This document shows positions 1,134 to 11,988 of a DNA stretch of 11,988 nucleotides, piece after piece. Origin of the DNA: Escherichia coli (GTDB lineage Bacteria; Pseudomonadota; Gammaproteobacteria; Enterobacterales; Enterobacteriaceae); assembly GCF_041248615.1 (NCBI RefSeq), contig NZ_CP158424.1. One strand, given 5' to 3'. Both the position numbers and the translations under genes were made by a program. Position 1 is the first letter of the stretch. Every line of letters begins with the position of its first letter. Below the pieces are notes generated by a model. That model saw nothing but the letters and a program-made list of their open reading frames with translations, did not search any database and was not told where the DNA came from.

Positions 1134-1394
1134 GAATGATTCTGGAAGAACGAAAAGTAAGAAGCGCAAAGGCTATGAGGGCAAAAGAGTATCGTGCCGC
1201 AGCGAATACTTTTACCTGGCAGCCTGTACGGCGCAGGTGAATAGACATTCCCCTGACTCATCCTGCTCCCCTTGGCGGCGAAGGGGATTAATCCCTATCC
1301 TGTAACTTCTATTTTGTGGAATCGAAAACAGCCGAAAATTGTGAAAAAAAACCGTTTCAGTCGTCTCAGTAAGGAAATTCGCTTGTGATTCACC

Positions 1395-1545
1395 TGGATG
1401 CATAGGTATGCATAAGGTTAAAATTTATCAGGCGCGATCGCGGTAGTTTTTCGGGGGGGTTGTTGCCATTTTTACCTGTCTGCTGCCGTGATTGCGCTGA
1501 ATGCATTTCAGCGGTGCGTATAATTAAGGGATTATGGTAAATCCA
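1395..1545 (+). other. cer-like XerCD site-specific recombination site (plasmid multimer resolution) with upstream accessory region
   Basis: Core 1513-1542 GGTGCGTATAA-TTAAGGGA-TTATGGTAAAT matches the ColE1 cer XerC-arm/central-region/XerD-arm organisation as I recall it (one mismatch in the XerC arm). The about 120 bp upstream resembles cer accessory sequence (PepA/ArgR region). Accessory boundary is approximate. Confidence 0.75.
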
Positions 1546-1546
1546 C

Positions 1547-1966
1547 TTACTGTCTTCCCTCGTAGCCATCGAGATAAACCGCAGAAATCGTCTCAGCCAG
1601 CAGCCTGGATTTTTTCGGGGTAAGGTCTTTGCTGCGGTAATCAGTACCCGCAAATTGAGTTGTGCCCCGGAGTGAGTTTAAAAATTCCTGGCTGTGAAAC
1701 TGCTGAATGCGTTGCTGCACATCACTCCGTGATTTTCCTGTCGCTTTATCCTTTGCTCCCATATCCCAGAACTGCCGGAAAAAAGGCACCATCATTCGTG
1801 TTGTGTCGGCCTTCTGGGTGGAAAAGTTAGGATCAAAACCATCGTCTGATGCATAAACGTAATGCCGGGTATGTTGTTCCACACTGCCCTTTGGCGTGCA
1901 GGCTGTCAGGACCGTTGCCGCTGTCAGCAGGGCGATAAGATACAGTGTGCCGCCGGAACGTCTCAT
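1547..1966 (-). CDS. Putative lipoprotein (139 aa), function unknown
   Basis: ATG at 1966 with AAGGAG 7 nt upstream (complement of 1974-1979). N-terminus MRRSGGTLYLIALLTAATVLTAC is a signal peptide with lipobox LTAC. Hydrophilic mature part. Lies immediately downstream of the HTH gene on the same strand. Confidence 0.75.
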   Translation of the reverse strand: MRRSGGTLYLIALLTAATVLTACTPKGSVEQHTRHYVYASDDGFDPNFSTQKADTTRMMVPFFRQFWDMGAKDKATGKSRSDVQQRIQQFHSQEFLNSLRGTTQFAGTDYRSKDLTPKKSRLLAETISAVYLDGYEGRQ

Positions 1967-2049: not shown

Positions 2050-2487
2050 TCACCGGCTGAACAGTCTGGCCCAGAATCCCCGTTTTTTTTCCTGCTCCAG
2101 TGCCTGCCTGAGCTGCTCTATCTCTTTATGTAGCTGTTCCCGTTCGGCTTCTTGGCGCCGGCGTTCCGTATCCTGTGCCTGTTTGTCCTCAAGCATCAGT
2201 GTCAGGCATTGTTTCAGCTCATTCAGCTCCCGGAGAATGCGTTCTGTCTGCTGATCATGTGGATTTTCTGCCTGTCCCACAGTGTGCCTTTCTTGTGTCT
2301 CATTTTGCTTTAATTCGCCGTATGCCCGGATCAGTTCACTGGTTTCAAACTCCCTTCGTCCGTCCTGGCTGGTACGGTAACTGACAAGACCTGAGCGCAT
2401 ATCACGGTAAAACTGTGAACGCGATCTTCCAGTCATTTTCAGTGCGTCCTGGAGTGTGTGCCATGCCATAAAGTTACAGTGTCCCAT
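2050..2487 (-). CDS. Putative DNA-binding protein: AlpA/Xis-like HTH N-terminus with C-terminal coiled coil
   Basis: Segment TLQDALKMTGRSRSQFYRDMRSG has a helix-turn-helix pattern (xTGxSRSxxYR) seen in AlpA/excisionase-type HTH proteins; C-terminal 60 aa is charged heptad-like (EAEREQLHKEIEQLRQALEQEKK). Start uncertain: ATG 2487 or ATG 2469, neither with a strong SD. Divergent from the colicin promoter. Confidence 0.65.
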   Translation of the reverse strand: MGHCNFMAWHTLQDALKMTGRSRSQFYRDMRSGLVSYRTSQDGRREFETSELIRAYGELKQNETQERHTVGQAENPHDQQTERILRELNELKQCLTLMLEDKQAQDTERRRQEAEREQLHKEIEQLRQALEQEKKRGFWARLFSR

Positions 2488-2700: not shown

Positions 2701-2745
2701 TATTTGTTTTTAATGGTTTGTTTTAAAAGTCAAAGAGGAATGAAT

Positions 2746-4602
2746 ATGCCGGGGTTTAATTACGGTGGGTATGGTGACGGTACTGGCTGGAGTTCTGAAA
2801 GTGGTGGTCCAGCTCCAGGCGGTGGTATGCATGGAAATAGTGGAGGCCAGCGCGGAGATAACGCAAACAGTAGCAATTCTGTGAGTCAGCAGATTTCTGC
2901 CATTCAGAATGATCAGAAACTTAAACAGAAAGTGGTGAATATGCTGATTGCTGCGAGAAAAATGAATCCTGAAGCAAAAATGATTCTGGGAAGTATTGCT
3001 CCTTCTGGTGTTATGCAGGTCACCATTGAGGGGGTAACCTCCACTCAGGCCAGGCAGCTTGGTTTGGGAGGGCTGGTCATGGGATATAACGCTTCTGGTG
3101 TTATTGGGGCTGTGGGCGAAATAGACACCGGTCACCGCCTTAATGCATCAGGAGCAAGTACTCCCGGAAGCGAAACTTCTGTGGAGAGTTTTGTGAACGG
3201 ACAGAAACCAGCCGGAGAATGGCATGCTGTGGCGAAGGACAGCTGGACAGGGGCTGGTCCAGTGAATGTAGGGCTGGTTAATAACGCCATCAAAAGTGTC
3301 CGGATTATCAAAAAAGGCTATGTGACGGGCGTTCTCACGCCAGAAGAGGTGATGAATAAAGCAGAGTACAAAGCAATGCGGCAGGCTTTCGATTCCCTTC
3401 CACTGGCAAAACAGGGAGAGGCTGTCAGACAGATTGTTGCTGCTTGGAGTCTGGCATATCAGGATTTTCCGGTAAATCTGAAAAAAGAGATGGGGCGTGT
3501 CACTGAACGGATTGTTGATGCTATTAACCTGGCGCTCATTCTTAATCAGACAGAGTCCCGTTTGTCGGAATCACAAAAGAATGTTGATGTAGCGAACCAG
3601 ATTATCAGTGATACAGTAAAAGCTATTAATGATGTAAATAAGAAAATAGCAGAAAAACGAAATCAGCAGGTATCACTGACTGATTTGATGAATAAAAAAC
3701 AAAAAGAGGTCGAAGATCTTAAAAAGATATTCAAAAATCACTCTTATCACCGTATTCGTGATGCCCAGAGGGAATATGATGATGCCCGAAATAAATATGC
3801 TTTACTGGCCAGTGATATTAATGCGCTGCAGGCACAGGTTTCCGGACTGACGGCAAGGAAACAGCAGGCAGAACAGAACAAGGCAGCAGCAGAAAAAGCA
3901 AAGGCAGATGCAGCGGCGAAAGCTGCAGCAGAAAAAGCGGCTGCTGAAGCGAAAGCAAAGGCTGAAGCTGAAAAAGCCAGAAAGGAAGCAGAGGAAAAAG
4001 CAAATGACGAGAAGGCTGTTCTGACAAAAGCCAGTGAAATTATCATCAGTGTTGGTGATAAGGCTGGGGAGTATCTGGGTGATAAATATAAAGTTCTTTC
4101 TCGTGAGATAGCAGATAATATCAAAAACTTTCAGGGCAAAACGATTCGTAGTTATGATGAGGCGATGGCTTCTGTCAATAAACTGATGGCTAATCCTGAT
4201 CTTAAAATTAATGCCGCCGACAGGGATGCAATTGTGAATGCTTGGAAAGCATTTGATGCAGAGGATATGGGGAATAAGTTTGCCGCGCTGGGTAAGACGT
4301 TTAAAGCCGCAGATTATATGATGAAGGCAAACAACGTCCGGGAGAAGAGTATCGAGGGGTATCAGACCGGAAACTGGGGGCCGCTGATGCTGGAGATTGA
4401 GTCCTGGGTATTGAGTGGTATTGCTTCTGCTGTGGCGCTATCATTTTTCTCAGTCGCTGTTGGTTCATTATTTATTACAGCGGGCGTGTCTGTAACGGCT
4501 GTGGGACTTATGGGCATTATTTTTGCTGGCTTTATCGGTGCGCTGATTGATGATGATTTTGTTGATAAGTTAAATAACGAAATTATTCGCCCTGCGTATT
4601 AA
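2746..4602 (+). CDS. Pore-forming colicin, colicin A/U/Y family (618 aa)
   Basis: Track ORF 2704-4602 begins at a TTG; best start is ATG 2746 (GAGG 2735-2738, 7-nt spacer). N-terminus MPGFNYGGYGDGTGWSSE plus Gly-rich segment matches the colicin A translocation-domain start as I recall it. Ala/Lys/Glu-rich helical linker. C-terminal about 200 aa (NFQGKTIRSYDEAMAS ... NWGPLMLEIESWVLSGIAS ... hydrophobic helical hairpin ... NNEIIRPAY) matches the colicin A-subgroup pore-forming domain. Length is close to colicin U/Y. Confidence 0.93.
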   Translation: MPGFNYGGYGDGTGWSSESGGPAPGGGMHGNSGGQRGDNANSSNSVSQQISAIQNDQKLKQKVVNMLIAARKMNPEAKMILGSIAPSGVMQVTIEGVTSTQARQLGLGGLVMGYNASGVIGAVGEIDTGHRLNASGASTPGSETSVESFVNGQKPAGEWHAVAKDSWTGAGPVNVGLVNNAIKSVRIIKKGYVTGVLTPEEVMNKAEYKAMRQAFDSLPLAKQGEAVRQIVAAWSLAYQDFPVNLKKEMGRVTERIVDAINLALILNQTESRLSESQKNVDVANQIISDTVKAINDVNKKIAEKRNQQVSLTDLMNKKQKEVEDLKKIFKNHSYHRIRDAQREYDDARNKYALLASDINALQAQVSGLTARKQQAEQNKAAAEKAKADAAAKAAAEKAAAEAKAKAEAEKARKEAEEKANDEKAVLTKASEIIISVGDKAGEYLGDKYKVLSREIADNIKNFQGKTIRSYDEAMASVNKLMANPDLKINAADRDAIVNAWKAFDAEDMGNKFAALGKTFKAADYMMKANNVREKSIEGYQTGNWGPLMLEIESWVLSGIASAVALSFFSVAVGSLFITAGVSVTAVGLMGIIFAGFIGALIDDDFVDKLNNEIIRPAY

Positions 4603-4611
4603 TTGAGAGTC

Positions 4612-4641
4612 GAAAGGTAGTCAGGAGGACTACCTTTCTTT
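4612..4641. terminator. Bidirectional hairpin terminator between convergent colicin and immunity genes
   Basis: Perfect 11-bp stem GAAAGGTAGTC (4612-4622) / loop AGGAG / GACTACCTTTC (4628-4638) followed by TTT. The immunity stop codon (4630-4632) lies inside the stem. Confidence 0.7.
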
Positions 4642-5154
4642 CCAGAGTTTATATGCTATTACTGGTTGGAGGCAGAGGGCGTAAGTTATGAAAAAAGAGC
4701 AATAATACAGGCAGATATAAAAGATAAGCAAAGTAAGATCGTTCTCAGACATCAATCGAACAGGTCTTCCCGATGTTGTTAACTCGAAGTTATGCCACAA
4801 GAAAAAATAAGCATAAAAAATACACAAAAAGGGGGACAGTATACAAGCTGTTATGATTTTTTTTCTGTCTGTTATTTTGGTGGTTCTTGTGTGTTTGAAT
4901 AGCATGATGAAAGCTATAAATGCTAATAATGGTGCGCTCTTACCGTAGATATCCATCACCTTTGTCATCACAGGGTTATATGAAGAAATTACTGAAGGTA
5001 TATTTTGAGTATTATCGAAAATGATGCGGATTAAATAGAAGTTGGGGTTTGATGTATAAGTTATAAAAATAATAATTAATGGGATTATACCCGCGAAAGT
5101 AATCAAAAAAAGCATCCTGTTTAAATCTTTGTTGTAAGTGTACTCTTTTTGCAT
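4630..5154 (-). CDS. Colicin immunity protein, A-type (four-TM inner-membrane protein, 174 aa)
   Basis: Antisense to the colicin gene, as in pore-forming colicin operons. Several hydrophobic segments. Motifs SSYNPVMTKVMDIY and NFELTTSGRPVRLM match the colicin A immunity protein (Cai) as recalled. GGGAG 10 nt upstream of ATG 5154. Confidence 0.9.
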   Translation of the reverse strand: MQKEYTYNKDLNRMLFLITFAGIIPLIIIFITYTSNPNFYLIRIIFDNTQNIPSVISSYNPVMTKVMDIYGKSAPLLAFIAFIMLFKHTRTTKITDRKKIITACILSPFLCIFYAYFFLWHNFELTTSGRPVRLMSENDLTLLIFYICLYYCSFFITYALCLQPVIAYKLWKER

Positions 5155-5273
5155 TGGTATAATACTCCCGGTTTTTCATTGTTATTAATTTAGTTGTTGA
5201 TATGTATAAGCATATCATGCTGTGCGAGTAATGGTCACCCTAATATTAGGGGTATGAGTTAATGAGGGGATAT

Positions 5274-5414
5274 ATGAAAATGATATTATCAGGAGGGATG
5301 CTTGTCTTGATGGCTTTGCTATCAGGCTGCCAGGCTAATTATATTCGCGATGTTCAGGGAGGGACCGTCGCACCATCCTCCTCTTCTGAACTGACGGGAA
5401 TCGCGGTTCAGTAG
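5274..5414 (+). CDS. Colicin lysis (bacteriocin release) lipoprotein, 46 aa
   Basis: Not in the ORF track (below length cutoff). ATG 5274 with GAGGGG 3 nt upstream. [46 protein letters not shown]: signal peptide, lipobox LSGC, and mature start [14 protein letters not shown] nearly identical to the colicin A lysis protein as recalled. Confidence 0.88.
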
Positions 5415-5469: not shown

Positions 5470-5579
5470 GCAAACAAAAAAACCACCGCTACCAACGGTG
5501 GTTTGTTTGCCGGATCAAGAGCTACCAACTCTTTTTCCGAAGGTAACTGGCTTGGAGGAGCACAGTCACCAAAACCTGT
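5470..5579 (-). ncRNA. RNAI: RNA I, antisense copy-number and incompatibility regulator
   Basis: Complement of the first about 110 nt of RNA II. Stem-loop 1 (AACCACCGCTACCAACGGTGGTT) is conserved with pMB1; distal stem-loop sequence (5553-5579) diverges. Ends are approximate. Confidence 0.8.
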
Positions 5580-6637: not shown

Positions 6638-6994
6638 ATGGGGGTAATGATACCGATGAAACGCGAGAGGATGCTCACGATACGGGTTACTGATGATGAA
6701 CATGCCCGGTTACTGGAACGCTGTGAGGGTAAACAACTGGCGGTATGGATGCGGCGGGTCTGCCTGGGTGAGCCGGTTGCCCGTTCCGGGAAGCTGCCGA
6801 CACTGGCACCGCCGTTACTGCGTCAGCTGGCCGCCATCGGGAATAACCTGAATCAGACAGCGAGGAAGGTGAACAGCGGGCAGTGGTCTTCCGGTGACCG
6901 GGTTCAGGTAGTGGCCGCACTGATGGCCATCGGGGAGGAGCTGCGCCGGCTGCGTCTGGCCGTCAGGGAACAGGGGGCGCGGGATGATAGTTAA
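6638..6994 (+). CDS. mbeC: Mobilisation protein MbeC/MobC (relaxosome accessory protein)
   Basis: MLTIRVTDDEHARLLERCEGKQLAVWMRR... matches the MobC N-terminal remnant retained in pBR322 and the ColE1 MbeC family. Divergent from rop. Start could be ATG 6638, 6656 or 6671; 6638 has the best SD spacing. Confidence 0.85.
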   Translation: MGVMIPMKRERMLTIRVTDDEHARLLERCEGKQLAVWMRRVCLGEPVARSGKLPTLAPPLLRQLAAIGNNLNQTARKVNSGQWSSGDRVQVVAALMAIGEELRRLRLAVREQGARDDS

Positions 6995-8549
6995 GTTTCA
7001 TGCCAGGGGAAAAGGTGGTGGCAGTGGTCCGGTTGATTACCTGCTGGGAAGGGAGCGTAACCGGGAAGGGGCAACGGTGCTTCAGGGTAATCCGGAAGAA
7101 GTCCGGGAACTCATCGATGCCACGCCATTTGCGAAGAAATACACGTCAGGTGTTCTGTCGTTCGCGGAGAAGGAGCTGCCGCCGGGAGGACGTGAAAAAG
7201 TGATGGCGAGCTTTGAGCGTGTACTGATGCCCGGTCTCGAAAAAAATCAGTACAGCATCCTGTGGGTGGAGCACCAGGACAAGGGACGGCTTGAGCTGAA
7301 TTTTGTCATTCCGAACATGGAGCTACAGAGCGGAAAACGCCTCCAGCCGTACTACGACCGGGCAGACAGGCCGAGAATTGATGCCTGGCAGACGCTGGTT
7401 AATCACCATTACGGGCTGCATGACCCCAACGCCCCGGAGAACCGCCGGACGCTGACTCTCCCTGATAACCTGCCGGAAACGAAACAGGCGCTTGCTGAGA
7501 GCGTCACACGCGGGATAGACGCTCTTTATCATGTCGGGGAGATAAAAGGCCGTCAGGATGTGATTCAGGCGCTCACAGAGGCGGGGCTTGAAGTGGTCAG
7601 AGTGACGCGAAGCAGCATCAGTATTGCAGACCCGAACGGCGGGAAGAATATCAGGCTGAAAGGAGCATTCTATGAGCAATCTTTTACAGACGGGCGCGGA
7701 GTTCGAGAAAAAGCTGAAAGAGAGAGCCGCATCTACAGAGAAAATGCTGAACGACGAGTTCAGGAAGCTCGAAGAATCTGTAAACAGGGAACTGACCTCA
7801 AACGAATCTTTAATCAGGAACGCTATCAACGCCCATACAGCAGCCCTGAAAGAACTTCTGGAGAGGTATCAGAAAACGACCGTCAGCACGATGGACACAC
7901 ACTGGCAAACCGTGCTGAAAATGAGCGTGAAACGCTGGCTGTGGCTGATTATCGTCTCAGTGCTGATGTTTGCCACGACCGGGAGTCTGCTGTGGTACCA
8001 GGGCATGAAGATAAACGCAAACATGAATATTCTCCGCGAGCAGAAAGAGAGTCTGGAGAAGCTGAACGCGAAGACATGGGGCGTGCGTTATCACGAGGAC
8101 AGCAACGGACGTTTTCTGGTGTTGCCGAAGGGGATGAAAGCCGAAACGCACTGGACGGAGGACAACGGCAAACTGAACGCAGTGAGACTGGTACAGGAGT
8201 GACAGAGCATGACGGAGCTGGAAAAACATTTGCTGAACGCCTTAGAGCAACTGCAACAGGACTATATGCAGCGGCTGAACGAATGGGAGAGCGCCTTCGT
8301 GGAATTGCAGAAGATGTTTTCGCTTACGCAACGGGACAACGCGATGCTGAACGAGCGGGTCATGCAGTTGAGTCAGCAGGTGCAGCACTTGAGCGAGCGG
8401 ACAGAACGCTTGAGCCAGTTATACAGCGAGAACAGGAGATAAGGGACGAACGGCTGATACAGGAACGCGAACATGAGTTATCCCTGGAGCGTGAGCGCCA
8501 TCTGGAAATACAGGAACGGACACTGGATGGCCCGTCGCTGGGATGGTAA
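6984..8549 (+). CDS. mbeA: Relaxase MbeA/MobA (ColE1-type, 521 aa)
   Basis: N-terminus MIVKFHARGKGGGSGPVDYLLG... is characteristic of ColE1-family relaxases; start overlaps the mbeC stop; C-terminal half is Arg/Glu-rich as in MbeA. Confidence 0.92.
   Translation: MIVKFHARGKGGGSGPVDYLLGRERNREGATVLQGNPEEVRELIDATPFAKKYTSGVLSFAEKELPPGGREKVMASFERVLMPGLEKNQYSILWVEHQDKGRLELNFVIPNMELQSGKRLQPYYDRADRPRIDAWQTLVNHHYGLHDPNAPENRRTLTLPDNLPETKQALAESVTRGIDALYHVGEIKGRQDVIQALTEAGLEVVRVTRSSISIADPNGGKNIRLKGAFYEQSFTDGRGVREKAERESRIYRENAERRVQEARRICKQGTDLKRIFNQERYQRPYSSPERTSGEVSENDRQHDGHTLANRAENERETLAVADYRLSADVCHDRESAVVPGHEDKRKHEYSPRAERESGEAEREDMGRALSRGQQRTFSGVAEGDESRNALDGGQRQTERSETGTGVTEHDGAGKTFAERLRATATGLYAAAERMGERLRGIAEDVFAYATGQRDAERAGHAVESAGAALERADRTLEPVIQREQEIRDERLIQEREHELSLERERHLEIQERTLDGPSLGW
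7672..8202 (+). CDS. mbeB: MbeB/MobB mobilisation protein, nested in an alternative frame of mbeA
   Basis: ATG 7672 with AGGAG upstream; 176 aa with a predicted TM segment (WLWLIIVSVLMFATTGSLLW). Nested arrangement matches ColE1 mbeB. Confidence 0.75.
   Translation: MSNLLQTGAEFEKKLKERAASTEKMLNDEFRKLEESVNRELTSNESLIRNAINAHTAALKELLERYQKTTVSTMDTHWQTVLKMSVKRWLWLIIVSVLMFATTGSLLWYQGMKINANMNILREQKESLEKLNAKTWGVRYHEDSNGRFLVLPKGMKAETHWTEDNGKLNAVRLVQE
8209..8442 (+). CDS. mbeD: MbeD/MobD (77 aa coiled-coil protein), nested within mbeA
   Basis: ATG 8209 with AGGAG 9 nt upstream; helical, Gln/Leu-rich sequence; position directly after mbeB as in ColE1. Confidence 0.7.
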   Translation: MTELEKHLLNALEQLQQDYMQRLNEWESAFVELQKMFSLTQRDNAMLNERVMQLSQQVQHLSERTERLSQLYSENRR

Positions 8550-8769: not shown

Positions 8770-9498
8770 TAGACGCCAGAATGCGTTTAATGCTTCTTCT
8801 GATGGTATCAGAGAGGAGCAGCTTGAGTTATTCCTGTTGGCCACAGAGCGTAATTATCTCCTTTTCAGATCCACACGGGGATACGTCAGAGTAGGAACTG
8901 AGCAAGGATTACTGAAAGATACTTTTTGCCAGAAAAAAATCCTCATACATGATGAGGATAAAGTCTTAAAGGTCCATTCTATGGAGTGTCGGATTGAAAA
9001 ATTTCTCCGGATGATATCCTTCACAGTTTAAATGTGATTTCAACCATAAGTTTTTTATGGATTTTGTTAAATAAAAAAGAATTGAGTCGTGTTTCTGATA
9101 TGTCTTAATATAATAAGTGAACAGTTATAAAATAATTGTGTTATATTTATTGTGAGTTTGATGTTATGTTCTGCATAAATAACTGTAGTTTAGAATATTA
9201 TTCTTTTATATTTATAGCTGTGAGATGATAAATTATAAGTGTTCTTTGTGCTATAAAGAACCCCCCGTATAAGGGGGGGAAAGATGGGTTTACTTCTTTT
9301 TAGTCCATGCCCTGGTGAGCTACATGAAGCTCGACACTACAGTAAAAATTTGGCAGTTTTTTTGAACTTTACGCAAGCAATTTATTTACATTGTAAAGAA
9401 AACCCCCTCAATTTGCGTATTACCGTGAAGGAGATCGGTGAGTAACATCGATGGAGATCGGTTCGTGTCACTTTCACAGAACCGTTTTTAAATTACCT

Positions 9499-10248
9499 TC
9501 ACTGATCTCCTTCGGTCAACGGAGATTGTATTTTCCGCATTGATTCTCCTTTAAGTTCGATCTTGATACTGCCATGAACCAGTCGATCTAGGATGGCATC
9601 CGCATGTGTGGAGTCTCCGATCATTTTGTACCAGTTTTCCACCGGCAACTGGCTCACTACGATGATTGAGCCTCGTTGGTACATCAGATCCACTATTTCC
9701 AGCAGGTCGCTACGCTGTTCTGATGAGAGAGGTTCCAGCCCCCAGTCATCCAGAAGCAGCAGATCGCTATTATTCAGCCTGGTCAAAAGTTTGCTGTATC
9801 TTCCATCAGCATGCCCCTGATAGCACTGTTCCATCAGCGCTTTAAGGCGATAATAGTAGACCTTGTATCCCTGTCGGCAGGCATTATGACCAAGTGCACA
9901 TGCCAGGAACGTTTTACCGCTGCCGGTGGCCCCGGTCAGTAAAATATTTTGTTTCAGGGTTAACCAGTTTCCCTGACTGAGTGAACGGATGAGGGCCCTG
10001 TCCAGCCCTCTATTGTTACGATAATCCAGCTTTGATAACTCAGCATTAAGTCTGAACCGTGCATGTTTGATCAGACGCTCTGCCTTCCTGTTTTCACGGC
10101 AGGTTAGTTCTTCTGCTGTCAGTAATGACAGGCGTTCTTCGAAGCCCAGCTCCTGGTATGTGCCCGGCTGAGCAAGTTGCTTTTTAAGCGCATCACGGAA
10201 GCCGGTGAGTTTAAGTGCGGTCAGTTGTTCGTAAAGATGATTCATCAT
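9499..10248 (-). CDS. istB: IstB-like ATPase helper of IS21-family transposition (249 aa)
   Basis: Walker A motif GATGSGKT and Walker B-like LLLLDDWG; size and position directly downstream of istA. Confidence 0.92.
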   Translation of the reverse strand: MMNHLYEQLTALKLTGFRDALKKQLAQPGTYQELGFEERLSLLTAEELTCRENRKAERLIKHARFRLNAELSKLDYRNNRGLDRALIRSLSQGNWLTLKQNILLTGATGSGKTFLACALGHNACRQGYKVYYYRLKALMEQCYQGHADGRYSKLLTRLNNSDLLLLDDWGLEPLSSEQRSDLLEIVDLMYQRGSIIVVSQLPVENWYKMIGDSTHADAILDRLVHGSIKIELKGESMRKIQSPLTEGDQ

Positions 10249-10259
10249 TGGATCCCGTA

Positions 10260-11801
10260 TCAGTGGTAATACTCACTGCCGCGTACGTTTTCGTGTTCCA
10301 TCGTGGATAACAGATCTGGTTTTGGATCCTGAACAGGTTGTTTATCCAGACCTTTTTCCAGGATCGATTTAATACCTGACAGACGCCATACCTTTGTTTT
10401 CAGAGCTCTTGCACATGCTGCATTAAGTCTGGCTTTACTGTATTTTTTATGAAGGTTCAGGAGTCCAAGGCAGAAGCGATAGCTTTGTTCCGGATGTGGA
10501 CGAGAGTTCAGTATATGAAGCACATAACTATGAGTTTCACTGCCTATGTGCCCCGCCCATTCCAGAAGACGCTCTGGCGTCCAGGTGGCATGCTGTCGAT
10601 GAGCTTCAGGCATGTGCTCGTTGCGGGTACTGTAGCCATAAGTACGCTTGCGCGGGTGCACAGCAACCTCCTGCCCCTGATTGAAGAGTCTTACCAGTTC
10701 TCCGGAGATCCATGCTTCCAGTTGCTGGCCTAACAGCGAACATGGAACCGAGTAGTAATGTTTGTCGATTTCCACGTGGTAATCGGCATGAACTCTGACT
10801 TTCTTCACCAGGGTGTAACTGTAACTGGCTTCAGGAAGAGGCTTCAGTGCGGGTTTATCAAGCTGGATGAAGAGTTCTGCACGTGAATAACCCAACTTCT
10901 GCATTATTTTGTTATTCAGTCTTTCCAGCAACTCCCGAATGCGCTGATTAAGCGATGCAAGGCTGTAGAAGATCTCATGCCTGATTCGGGCCATGATCCA
11001 GCGTTCAACAACCTGAACGCCAACTTCAGCTTTGGCTTTATCTTTCGGTTTACGTGGCCGCGCAGGCAAAACTGCGACATTATAATGCTCAAGCATCTGC
11101 TGGTAGGTAGGGTTAACGTCAGGATCATACTTACATGCCCTGGATGTGGCGCTTTTCAGATTGTCCGGAACAACAAGTTCAGGAACGCCACCCAACCACT
11201 GGAAGCAGCGAACATGACTCATCACCCAGTCTTCAAGCTGCTGAGACCAGGTGGCCTCTGCCCATGTGTAACTTGATGCCCCGAGAACAGCTACGATGAC
11301 CTGAGCAGTTCTTATTTCTCCGGTCTCAGGGTCGGTAACGCCAACGGTAGGTCCACAGTAATCAACGAAAAGTTTTTCGCCAGCTTTATGTACCTGACGC
11401 ATTGATGGTGAAGTGGTTTTGAGCCATTCACGGTACATCCGGCAGTAATGGTTATAGCTGTAAAAACCGCCTGGATTACGCTCACAGTATTCTTCCCAGA
11501 GTAGCTGCAGCGTCACGCATTTATTACGCAGTTCCCGGTGTACTGTAGCCCAGTCAGGCAGAGAGTGCTTCTTCATCTTAACCTGGGTCTGAAGGAACGC
11601 ATGTTTTAGTTTTGTATCATCCCATCCTGTAGGTAAGGGCCACTGCTTTATGCCAAGTTGAGCCGCCCGATTAGCATATCTGGATACAACGGAAGGGGAG
11701 ATTGCAAGACTACGACCAATTTGTCGATGGCTGAGTCCAACACCGTATTTAAGCCTAAGAATTTCTTTAAGTTTTCTCATAGAAATTGGAACTGTTGGCA
11801 T
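10260..11801 (-). CDS. istA: IstA transposase, IS21 family (513 aa)
   Basis: N-terminal HTH (LKEILRLKYGVGLSHRQIGRSLAISPSVVSRY) followed by a long catalytic region; AGGA 5 nt upstream of ATG 11801; 11-bp gap to istB. Confidence 0.92.
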   Translation of the reverse strand: MPTVPISMRKLKEILRLKYGVGLSHRQIGRSLAISPSVVSRYANRAAQLGIKQWPLPTGWDDTKLKHAFLQTQVKMKKHSLPDWATVHRELRNKCVTLQLLWEEYCERNPGGFYSYNHYCRMYREWLKTTSPSMRQVHKAGEKLFVDYCGPTVGVTDPETGEIRTAQVIVAVLGASSYTWAEATWSQQLEDWVMSHVRCFQWLGGVPELVVPDNLKSATSRACKYDPDVNPTYQQMLEHYNVAVLPARPRKPKDKAKAEVGVQVVERWIMARIRHEIFYSLASLNQRIRELLERLNNKIMQKLGYSRAELFIQLDKPALKPLPEASYSYTLVKKVRVHADYHVEIDKHYYSVPCSLLGQQLEAWISGELVRLFNQGQEVAVHPRKRTYGYSTRNEHMPEAHRQHATWTPERLLEWAGHIGSETHSYVLHILNSRPHPEQSYRFCLGLLNLHKKYSKARLNAACARALKTKVWRLSGIKSILEKGLDKQPVQDPKPDLLSTMEHENVRGSEYYH

Positions 11802-11988
11802 AGGTATCCTTTACCGGAATGGCAAAAGATACAGATCAACACACCTGTGAAGTTCCAATAACATTGATGGAGATCACTGAATAACAAAATGAGTCAAAAG
11901 TGATCTCCATCGATGTTATTCAGCGATCTGTTCAAATGTTATTACCCGATCTCGATGGAAGTTATTGAGTGATCTCCTTTCATGAAAA

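What the first reader, a model, noticed from the sequence alone, without database searches (positions are those of the whole stretch)
1395..1620. cer-like multimer-resolution site with a variant XerC arm; possible Rcd-like transcript
The core is GGTGCGTATAA-TTAAGGGA-TTATGGTAAAT, with one difference from the ColE1 cer core as I recall it (GGTGCGTACAA). The putative accessory region lies on the XerC side as expected. In ColE1, cer also encodes the Rcd checkpoint RNA; a weak hairpin plus T-run at about 1597-1616 could terminate such a transcript, which would run antisense to the 3' end of the lipoprotein gene.
Basis: partly seen in the sequence, partly recalled or inferred. Interest (0 to 1): 0.3.

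Follow-up and report, generated by a model that had tools for sequence, protein, structure and literature searches.

The report
ColE1-type cer site with SNP

Summary
The window is the complete E. coli plasmid p14408_3 (NZ_LT599828.1), a ColE1-type colicin R plasmid.

- **Site:** a cer-family Xer site lies at about 1330-1542 (+). It has about 180 bp of accessory sequence with an ARG box (1397-1414) and a 30-bp core (1513-1542).
- **Core:** the core differs from the ColE1 core at one base, 1521 (C to T).
- **SNP:** the nearest relative, pSMS35_8, has C at 1521. The exact variant occurs in 3 of 72,556 plasmid records, against 640 with the canonical core.
- **Tolerance:** T at this arm position occurs in 6 of 23 other natural cer-like sites, so loss of function is not expected.
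- **Rcd:** an Rcd-like RNA is encoded, but upstream of the core. The -10 TAAAAT (1419-1424) sits 15 bp after ATGCAT, and a long hairpin spans 1431-1498 (-38.8 kcal/mol, z -4.4).
- **Covariation:** 11 of 24 pairs show compensatory changes across 24 plasmids, and pairing is far better on the + strand.
- **Proposed terminator:** It folds no better than shuffled sequence, and the family loses similarity after 1542.

Verdict: a known kind of element and of low interest. One untested point is that the SNP creates a perfect TATAAT inside the XerC arm.

The parts
1330..1512 (+). cer accessory sequence (expected PepA/ArgR binding region) on the XerC side of the core
   Evidence: Family conservation profile: identity to the window rises at about 1330 and is 0.7-0.95 from 1390 to 1519. 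Alignments with ColE1 and 22 other cer-like sites. The review PMC5357621 gives the expected length as about 180 bp.
1397..1414 (+). ARG box (expected ArgR binding site), GATGCATAGGTATGCATA
   Evidence: Aligns with the ColE1 box GTTGCATAGGTATTCATA. G at 1410 is the majority form, present in 19 of 24 sites. The box ends 98 bp before the XerC arm, the usual family spacing (ColE1 is 1 bp shorter). Identification as an ARG box rests on homology and on the consensus as I recall it.
1398..1424 (+). Pcer-like promoter: -35 ATGCAT (1398-1403), 15-bp spacer, -10 TAAAAT (1419-1424)
   Evidence: TAAAAT is invariant or nearly invariant in 24 sites. ColE1 has TTGCAT-15-TAAAAT at the aligned position. The 15-bp spacer is stated in PMC5935869. 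The assignment is inferred, because the primary mapping papers were not available.
1431..1498 (+). Rcd-like RNA hairpin: outer helix 1431-1447 with 1482-1498, inner helices 1453-1456 with 1474-1477 and 1457-1459 with 1465-1467
   Evidence: RNAalifold consensus with 11 of 24 pairs compensatory. 94.9% of cells paired against 34-64% for slid controls, with 0 of 500 shuffles reaching the observed value. Window fold -38.8 kcal/mol, z -4.43. The minus strand folds at only -18.6 kcal/mol, z -1.88. Pairing is 94.9% on the + strand and 75.9% on the - strand.
1452..1467 (+). Most conserved block in the hairpin's apical part, here CGGGGGGGTTGTTGCC (family consensus CGGGTGGTTTGTTGCC)
   Evidence: Near-invariant columns. 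The window lineage has two T-to-G changes that produce a G7 run, also seen in Klebsiella plasmid L017. The E7-1N7 plasmid has G8.
1513..1523 (+). XerC-binding arm GGTGCGTATAA, with the C-to-T variant at 1521
   Evidence: The exact variant core occurs in only 3 records, against 640 records with the canonical core.
1524..1531 (+). 8-bp central (crossover) region TTAAGGGA
   Evidence: Identical to ColE1. The 8-bp cer central region is described in PMC5357621.
1532..1542 (+). XerD-binding arm TTATGGTAAAT
   Evidence: Identical to ColE1 and to 17 of the other 23 sampled sites.

Best explanation
Window 1330-1542 (+) is a genuine ColE1-type cer site, the plasmid's Xer-dependent multimer-resolution locus.

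Inferred mechanism, by homology to ColE1 cer:
- ArgR binds the ARG box at 1397-1414, and PepA binds the flanking accessory DNA. In a plasmid dimer they interwrap two directly repeated sites.
- XerC (arm 1513-1523) and XerD (arm 1532-1542) then exchange strands across the 8-bp central region, converting dimers to monomers.

Nested in the accessory sequence is the Pcer/Rcd module:
- A promoter with a 15-bp spacer (ATGCAT 1398-1403, TAAAAT 1419-1424) should start a + strand RNA near 1431.
- Its body is a long hairpin (1431-1498), giving a product of about 70 nt that ends before the XerC arm.
- By analogy with ColE1, this RNA would be made from dimers and delay cell division.

The 'variant XerC arm' is a recent single-base change (C to T at 1521). 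It makes the inner arm end ...ATAA, which mirrors the TTAT of the XerD arm and, as I recall, matches the dif XerC arm. It is most likely neutral or mildly favourable for XerC binding.

Shown here: sequence homology, synteny, orientation, rarity of the SNP, and RNA-structure covariation with strand bias. Inferred: protein binding, recombination, promoter activity, transcript ends and Rcd function.
For: - **Core:** one mismatch to ColE1, unique in the window, 0 expected by chance.
- **Homology and synteny:** 90.5% identity to ColE1 from 1394 through exc2 and exc1, with the same position 4 nt from the exc2 stop codon.
- **Family:** 2,569 PLSDB records carry a related site. The conserved block is 1330-1542, with a sharp drop after the core.
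- **ARG box and -10:** the ARG box, the TAAAAT and the conserved T runs that follow it align across 24 sites.
- **Orientation:** RNAI is at 5474-5577 (-), so RNAII is on the + strand, the same direction as accessory-to-core. This is the rule stated in PMC2831885.
- **Hairpin:** 17-bp outer stem, with 10 of its 17 pairs changed on both sides. Overall 94.9% paired, 0 of 500 shuffles as good, slid controls 34-64%.
- **Strand bias:** 107 G-U cells make the + strand pair far better than the - strand. Folding energies are -38.8 against -18.6 kcal/mol.
- **Published description:** PMC5935869 describes Rcd as 70 nt, a single stem-loop, with a 15-bp promoter spacer, inside a 166-bp mrs. It counts pRK2 as a close Rcd homologue, and pRK2's sequence after the core is unrelated to ColE1's.
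- **SNP:** pSMS35_8 differs from the window at only 4 positions in 1132-1960, one of them 1521. T occupies that arm position in 6 of 23 other natural sites.
Against: - No experiment was possible: recombination, protein binding and transcription are all untested.
- The exact ColE1 positions of Pcer and of the Rcd ends could not be read, because the primary papers are not held. The promoter assignment therefore rests on the 15-bp spacer, conservation, direction and my recollection.
- The -35 hexamer begins with A here (T in ColE1, C in most relatives) and matches TTGACA at only 2 of 6 positions.
- The window lineage has two substitutions in the most conserved apical block, so Rcd activity could be altered.
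- No canonical intrinsic terminator follows the hairpin. The 7-bp second hairpin at 1495-1513 has no convincing family support.
Confidence: 0.88

Rival explanations
1. One reading: the Rcd-like transcript runs through or starts at the core, continues antisense into the 3' end of exc2, and terminates at the hairpin plus T-run at 1597-1616.
For: - CCAG/CTGG followed by T6 does exist at 1597-1615.
- No strong terminator follows the 1431-1498 hairpin, so some read-through cannot be excluded.
- One secondary source gives Rcd as 90 nt (PMC2254391).
Against: - The terminator scan finds nothing in 1200-2100.
- Folds of 1531-1620 and 1585-1620 have z +0.17 and +0.11, and the T-run is predicted to sit inside a loop.
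- The stretch encodes PKKSRLLAE of Exc2.
- In the E7-1N7 plasmid the stem is lost while the T-run remains.
- Downstream of the core, most family members carry unrelated genes such as EcoRI, ospG or hypothetical proteins. A conserved Rcd therefore cannot extend there.
- From a start at 1431 the RNA would be about 185 nt, not 70.
Confidence: 0.05
2. The C-to-T change at 1521 creates or strengthens an outward-facing promoter inside the XerC arm: CTGAAT 1497-1502, 16 bp, TATAAT 1519-1524. It would start a + strand RNA near 1531 that crosses the XerD arm and runs antisense to the exc2 3' end, and XerC/XerD occupancy would occlude it.
For: - The SNP turns TACAAT into the perfect -10 consensus, with 3 of 6 matches in a -35 hexamer at 16-bp spacing.
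- An outward promoter embedded in a cer core is known elsewhere: the EcoRI PR promoter on pMB1-type plasmids uses TTAAGG of the central region as its -35 (PMC7315355).
- The variant persists in three plasmids with different flanks.
Against: - The -35 is poor and there is no extended -10.
- The site did not pass the standard promoter scan, which needs at least 4 of 6 in each hexamer.
- The site should normally be occupied by XerCD.
- The product has no predicted structure or terminator.
- The variant is very rare, 3 records against 640, which fits a neutral SNP.
Confidence: 0.1
3. The SNP weakens XerC binding, so the site is a decaying or less efficient cer.
For: - The variant is very rare compared with the canonical core.
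- XerC binding to cer is already weak and cooperative with XerD (established knowledge, not tested here).
Against: - T occurs at this arm position in 6 of 23 other natural cer-like sites: GGTGCGCGTAA, GGTGTGCGTAA and GGTGCGGGTAA.
- As I recall, the chromosomal dif XerC arm is GGTGCGCATAA, also with T at this position.
- The change increases dyad symmetry with the XerD arm.
- The rest of the site is intact, and the variant is found in three plasmids.
Confidence: 0.07
4. The 1431-1498 inverted repeat serves mainly as a minus-strand terminator for the exc1-exc2 transcript, or as a DNA-level feature of the accessory region, and not as an Rcd RNA.
For: - The repeat lies about 50 nt beyond the exc2 stop codon on the minus strand.
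- On that strand it is followed by an A/U-rich stretch (UGAUAAAUUUUAACC).
Against: - Pairing is 94.9% on the + strand but 75.9% on the - strand, because 107 cells are G-U.
- The minus-strand fold is -18.6 kcal/mol, z -1.88, against -38.8 kcal/mol, z -4.43.
- The hairpin is conserved in plasmids that have no exc2 next to cer.
Confidence: 0.08

Closest known systems
ColE1 cer, including Pcer/Rcd (NC_001371 about 3725-3938)
   Same: - The 30-bp core is identical except at one base.
- The 8-bp central region TTAAGGGA and the XerD arm are the same.
- The ARG box, the TAAAAT -10 with a 15-bp spacer, and the long Rcd hairpin are all present.
- The position 4 nt from the exc2 stop and the orientation relative to RNAII are the same.
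   Different: - C to T at arm position 9 (window 1521).
- The ARG-box right half is ATGCA rather than ATTCA, which is the family majority form.
- The -35 is ATGCAT rather than TTGCAT.
- There is a 1-nt insertion in the 5' arm of the hairpin, and two G-U wobbles replace G-C pairs.
- The apical block reads GGGGGGGTTG rather than GGGTGGTTTG.
- The left 60 bp of the accessory sequence (1330-1394) is only weakly similar to ColE1, but resembles other family members.
cer of pSMS35_8 (NC_010485) and the other roughly 8.9-kb E. coli plasmids listed
   Same: 99.3% identical over 1250-1700, with the same Exc2 protein (WP_001254598.1). Only 4 differences in 1132-1960.
   Different: - These plasmids have the canonical C at 1521, and G at 1467 where the window keeps the family consensus C.
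- They carry an E1-type colicin module instead of colicin R.
- They lack the IS21-family insertion.
Other cer-family sites with 6- or 7-bp central regions, sampled here (for example pRK2, pPCP1 and Klebsiella ColRNAI plasmids)
   Same: They share the ARG box, the TAAAAT, the conserved T runs, a covarying hairpin, a GGTG... XerC arm and a TTATGGTAAAT XerD arm.
   Different: Central regions and XerC arm positions 7-9 differ, and the sequence downstream of the core is unrelated.
Chromosomal dif
   Same: It has an XerC arm, a central region and an XerD arm. As I recall, the dif XerC arm ends ...CATAA, so the window's T at arm position 9 matches dif.
   Different: dif has a 6-bp central region, no ArgR/PepA accessory sequence, and depends on FtsK (PMC5357621). 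The window site has the cer architecture.
EcoRI PR promoter embedded in the pMB1-type cer core (PMC7315355)
   Same: It is an outward-reading promoter that overlaps the XerCD binding sites of a cer site, and so a precedent for the speculative TATAAT reading.
   Different: Its -35 is TTAAGG in the central region and its -10 lies in EcoRI-specific DNA. The window has exc2, not ecoRIR, downstream, and the candidate -10 lies in the XerC arm.

Membership tests
cer-family (ColE1-type) Xer multimer-resolution site | 30-bp core: 11-bp XerC arm, 8-bp central region, 11-bp XerD arm | tested here: met
   1513-1542 matches the ColE1 core at 29 of 30 positions, is unique in the window, and has 0 expected by chance. 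The architecture is described in PMC5357621.
cer-family (ColE1-type) Xer multimer-resolution site | About 180 bp of accessory sequence on the XerC side, homologous to known cer sites | tested here: met
   Alignments A1 and A2. The conservation profile covers 1330-1512.
cer-family (ColE1-type) Xer multimer-resolution site | ARG box about 100 bp upstream of the core | tested here: met
   1397-1414 aligns with the ColE1 box and ends 98 bp before the XerC arm. ArgR binding itself was not tested.
cer-family (ColE1-type) Xer multimer-resolution site | Fixed orientation relative to oriV: RNAII read-through enters from the ArgR side | tested here: met
   RNAI lies at 5474-5577 on the - strand, so RNAII is on the + strand, and cer runs accessory-to-core on the + strand. 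The rule is stated in PMC2831885.
cer-family (ColE1-type) Xer multimer-resolution site | Dimer resolution dependent on XerC, XerD, ArgR and PepA | not testable with these tools
   Needs an in vivo or in vitro recombination assay.
Pcer/Rcd module | Promoter inside cer with a 15-bp spacer, reading in the same direction as RNAII | tested here: inconclusive
   ATGCAT-15-TAAAAT at 1398-1424, with a conserved -10. The -35 is weak. The ColE1 assignment is inferred from PMC5935869 and PMC2831885, because the primary mapping papers are not held.
Pcer/Rcd module | RNA of about 70 nt folding into a single long stem-loop, conserved among related plasmids | tested here: met
   The 1431-1498 hairpin folds at -38.8 kcal/mol, z -4.43. 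Covariation is present at 11 of 24 pairs, and pairing is biased to the + strand.
Pcer/Rcd module | Highly conserved 15-nt sequence within Rcd | tested here: inconclusive
   The most conserved block is 1452-1467, and the window has two T-to-G changes in it. The published 15-mer could not be read, so its identity with this block is assumed.
Pcer/Rcd module | Expression from multimers, tryptophanase binding, indole-mediated growth arrest | not testable with these tools
   Needs northern blot or RACE in monomer and dimer backgrounds, plus indole assays.
   0 terminator-like sites in 1200-2100. The stem is only 4 bp. Fold z-scores are +0.11 and +0.17. The stretch is coding sequence, and the stem is not kept in E7-1N7.

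The most novel reading that the evidence does not exclude
The rare C-to-T change does more than alter XerC binding. By creating a consensus TATAAT inside the XerC arm, it makes a promoter that fires only when XerC/XerD are absent from the core. This promoter sends an RNA across the XerD arm and antisense into the exc2 3' end. A second transcript, sensitive to Xer occupancy, would thus be added to a cer site beside Rcd.
Probability: 0.08. Interest if true: 0.4.

Novelty: new member of a known kind. Interest (0 to 1): 0.1.

Why it matters
It matters little beyond annotation. The plasmid's cer site and Rcd-like gene do not appear in the gene table available here (that table omits RNA and miscellaneous features) and can now be placed precisely.

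Two by-products have modest value:
- The 24-plasmid alignment gives clear covariation and strand-bias support for the Rcd hairpin. Rfam has no family for it, so a covariance model could be built to annotate Rcd across thousands of ColE1-like plasmids.
- The natural T variant of the XerC arm, next to near-isogenic C-form relatives, offers a ready pair for testing how arm position 9 affects XerC binding, resolution selectivity and stray promoter activity.

Tried and rejected
- **Primary papers:** I looked for the ColE1 coordinates of Pcer and the Rcd ends. Summers & Sherratt 1988 (PMC454402) and Rowe & Summers 1999 (PMC91400) are not held. The reviews and plasmid papers that are held give only length, spacer, direction and shape.
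- **Rfam:** there is no Rcd family. At a permissive E-value only chance hits appear, including a miRNA-precursor model on 1431-1498 that merely reflects a hairpin.
- **Second 15-bp-spacer candidate:** ColE1 also has TGAACG-15-TACAAT in the XerC arm. I rejected it as Pcer because that -10 is absent from most family cores and nothing downstream of the core is conserved.
- **Second hairpin:** CGCTGAA/TTCAGCG at 1495-1513 is perfect in the window. Its family support is weak, with 75% paired and shuffles often as good, so I make no claim for it as a terminator.
- **Standard scan:** the promoter and terminator scan found nothing relevant. Its 16-18 bp spacer rule cannot detect a promoter with a 15-bp spacer.
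- **Colicin R literature:** the search was unproductive because of word-start matching.

Full report
**What the window is.** The 11,988-bp window is the complete plasmid p14408_3 of E. coli NRZ14408 (NZ_LT599828.1), matched at 100%. It is a ColE1-type mobilisable plasmid.
- RNAI lies at 5474-5577 (-).
- A MobC-family gene and a relaxase gene lie at 6638-8549.
- The colicin R gene cra (2704-4602) and its immunity gene cri (4630-5154) are present.
- exc1 (2050-2487, -) and the Exc2 lipoprotein gene (1547-1966, -) follow.
- An IS21-family element is also present.

**The observation.** The string GGTGCGTATAA-TTAAGGGA-TTATGGTAAAT is at 1513-1542 on the + strand. It is the only match in the window to the ColE1 core within 3 mismatches, with none expected by chance. 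The ColE1 record (NC_001371) has the exact canonical core at 3909-3938, 4 nt from the stop of its Exc2 gene. The window has the same arrangement, with the core ending at 1542 and the exc2 stop at 1547-1549. The single difference is T for C at 1521. BLAST homology with ColE1 begins at 1394 and runs through exc2 and exc1 at 90.5% identity (alignment). The core, the single mismatch and the side on which the accessory DNA lies are therefore all confirmed.

**Extent of the site.** A distant search found a related site in 2,569 PLSDB records. I fetched 23 diverse examples, including ColE1, pRK2, pPCP1, EcoRI plasmids, Shigella IncF plasmids and Klebsiella and Citrobacter ColRNAI plasmids. Their cores have 6-, 7- or 8-bp central regions and variable XerC arm positions 7-9.

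A position-by-position profile shows how far family similarity to the window extends:
- It starts at about 1330 and exceeds 0.7 from 1390.
- It stays at 0.73-0.95 up to the core.
- It collapses to 0.3-0.45 right after 1542.

This is expected of a recombination crossover. Downstream of the core, the relatives carry Exc2, EcoRI, OspG or unrelated hypothetical genes. The element is therefore 1330-1542, about 183 bp of accessory sequence plus a 30-bp core. This matches the published architecture of a 30-bp core with about 180 bp of accessory sequence (PMC5357621). The stretch 1543-1620 in the finding is not part of the site.

**Anatomy of the accessory region.**
- The ARG box is GATGCATAGGTATGCATA at 1397-1414, against GTTGCATAGGTATTCATA in ColE1.
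- The G at 1410 is the majority form, present in 19 of 24 sites, so it is not a defect.
- TAAAAT at 1419-1424 is almost invariant across the family. The T runs that follow it are also conserved.
- Spacing from the ARG box to the core is the family norm. ColE1 is the outlier, one base shorter.
- Accessory-to-core runs in the same direction as RNAII, as PMC2831885 reports for all ColE1-like plasmids.

**Where the Rcd-like RNA is.** The published descriptions available to me say four things:
- Rcd is transcribed in the same direction as RNAII, with the ArgR side upstream (PMC2831885).
- It is about 70 nt long (PMC5357621, PMC5935869).
- It folds as a single stem-loop and lies inside a 166-bp mrs.
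- Its promoter has a 15-bp spacer (PMC5935869).

On the + strand of ColE1, the aligned candidate is TTGCAT-15-TAAAAT, which overlaps the ARG box. The window has ATGCAT (1398-1403), 15 bp, then TAAAAT (1419-1424).

A long hairpin follows immediately:
- RNAalifold on 24 sequences gives a 17-bp outer helix (window 1431-1447 with 1482-1498) plus inner helices. Compensatory changes occur at 11 of 24 pairs.
- Counting on that structure gives 94.9% of cells paired, against 34-64% when partners are slid by 1-3 columns. No shuffle out of 500 reaches the observed pairing, and 10 of the 17 outer pairs change on both sides.
- Three sequence groups use different arm sequences: GATCGCGG/CCGTGATC, GTTTCCGG/CCGGAAAC and GAACGGGG/CCCCGTTC.
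- The structure is strand-specific. 107 cells are G-U, so pairing falls to 75.9% on the minus strand.
- The window's + strand folds at -38.8 kcal/mol (z -4.43). Its minus strand folds at -18.6 (z -1.88), and ColE1 folds at -39.6 (z -5.04).

A start near 1431 plus 70 nt ends near 1500, before the XerC arm. One further argument supports this placement. PMC5935869 treats pRK2 as a close Rcd homologue of ColE1, yet pRK2's sequence after the core is unrelated to ColE1's. Rcd must therefore lie upstream of the core.

I could not read the primary mapping papers. The promoter assignment and the exact ends therefore remain inference.

**Peculiarities of this lineage's Rcd region.**
- The -35 begins with A.
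- Two G-C pairs are G-U wobbles (1444 with 1485, and 1436 with 1493).
- The most conserved apical block reads CGGGGGGGTTGTTGCC instead of CGGGTGGTTTGTTGCC. The resulting G7 run is G8 in one relative.
- A perfect 7-bp hairpin at 1495-1513 abuts the XerC arm, but it lacks convincing family support.

- The sequence CCAGCAGCCTGGATTTTTT exists, but the stem is only 4 bp.
- The terminator scan reports nothing in 1200-2100.
- Folding 1585-1620 or 1531-1620 gives z-scores of +0.11 and +0.17, and the T-run is predicted to sit inside a loop.
- On the minus strand the stretch encodes ...PKKSRLLAE... of Exc2.
- The stem is lost in a plasmid with a divergent exc2.

A conserved cer-encoded RNA cannot depend on sequence that most cer sites lack.

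**The variant XerC arm.**
- pSMS35_8, representative of about 14 near-identical 8.9-kb plasmids (99.3% over 1250-1700), differs from the window at only four positions in 1132-1960. One of them is 1521.
- The exact variant core occurs in 3 of 72,556 PLSDB records and in 3 of 5,426 complete E. coli genomes, and these are the same three plasmids.
- The canonical ColE1-type core is present at 99% identity or more in 640 records.
- One carrier is a 117-kb IncF plasmid. The identical cer segment (about 1385-1592) sits there between diverged flanks, so the segment has moved by recombination.
- T at arm position 9 is found in 6 of 23 other natural sites. As I recall, it is also found in dif.
- The change makes the inner arm end ATAA, the mirror of TTAT in the XerD arm.

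I therefore regard it as a neutral or mildly favourable SNP, not a functional novelty.

The one curiosity is that the SNP creates TATAAT (1519-1524) with CTGAAT 16 bp upstream. An outward promoter embedded in a cer core has a precedent in the EcoRI PR promoter (PMC7315355). However, the -35 is poor, the site should be occupied by XerCD, and nothing downstream looks like an RNA gene. I give this reading about 8-10%.

**Verdict.** This is a well-known kind of element, a ColE1-family cer site with its embedded Pcer/Rcd module. It is present here as an unremarkable new member carrying a rare SNP. Interest is low.

Noticed in passing
window 9414-11988 continuing to 1-6: An IS21-family element of 2,581 bp (istA 10260-11801 and istB 9499-10248, both on the - strand). 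It has terminal inverted repeats starting TGCGTATT and a 7-bp target-site duplication CTCAATT (9407-9413 and 7-13). It is absent from pSMS35_8. [quoted passage not shown]
   Followed up: partly
window 2739-5331: The plasmid is a mosaic. The cer-exc region and the ori-mob region are 91-99% identical to pSMS35_8. The colicin R and immunity module replaces the E1-type colicin and immunity genes of that plasmid, with similarity breaking at about 2739 and 5331.
   Followed up: partly
window 1519-1524 (with 1497-1502): The C-to-T SNP at 1521 makes a perfect -10 consensus TATAAT inside the XerC arm, with CTGAAT 16 bp upstream. ColE1 has TACAAT at the same place.
   Followed up: partly
window 1453-1459: A G7 homopolymer lies in the most conserved apical block of the Rcd hairpin, where the family consensus is GGGTGGT. 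It is G8 in plasmid E7-1N7 and is shared with Klebsiella plasmid L017. This is a possible slippage-prone tract in a small RNA gene.
   Followed up: no
window 2050-2487 (-): The protein annotated as 'entry exclusion protein 1' gives a sub-threshold match to a plasmid replication DNA-binding protein family (NF038291, E 9e-11, 42 bits against a cut-off of 85), and a fainter one to the N-terminus of IS607 transposases. PMC2831885 notes that the function of ExcI is in fact unknown. It may be a DNA-binding protein and not an exclusion factor.
   Followed up: no
L021 (pSE11-5) 290-372: This cer-like site is a hybrid. The 5' arm of its Rcd hairpin is of the ColE1 type and the 3' arm is of the Klebsiella/Citrobacter type, so the long stem is disrupted. 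This looks like a recombinant with a broken Rcd.
   Followed up: no
window 1268-1287: An inverted repeat CCCCTT-GGCGGC-GAAGGGG lies just upstream of the accessory region and has no following T-run. It is possibly the end of the upstream mob-side transcript. I only read it by eye.
   Followed up: no
NZ_CP100534.1 and NZ_CP100535.1: By their adjacent accession numbers and identical source description, these two plasmids appear to come from the same chicken isolate. One (9.4 kb) has the T variant and is 100% identical to the window over 1250-1700. The other (8.9 kb) is 99.3% identical over that stretch and has one mismatch in 1490-1560, presumably the C at 1521.
   Followed up: no
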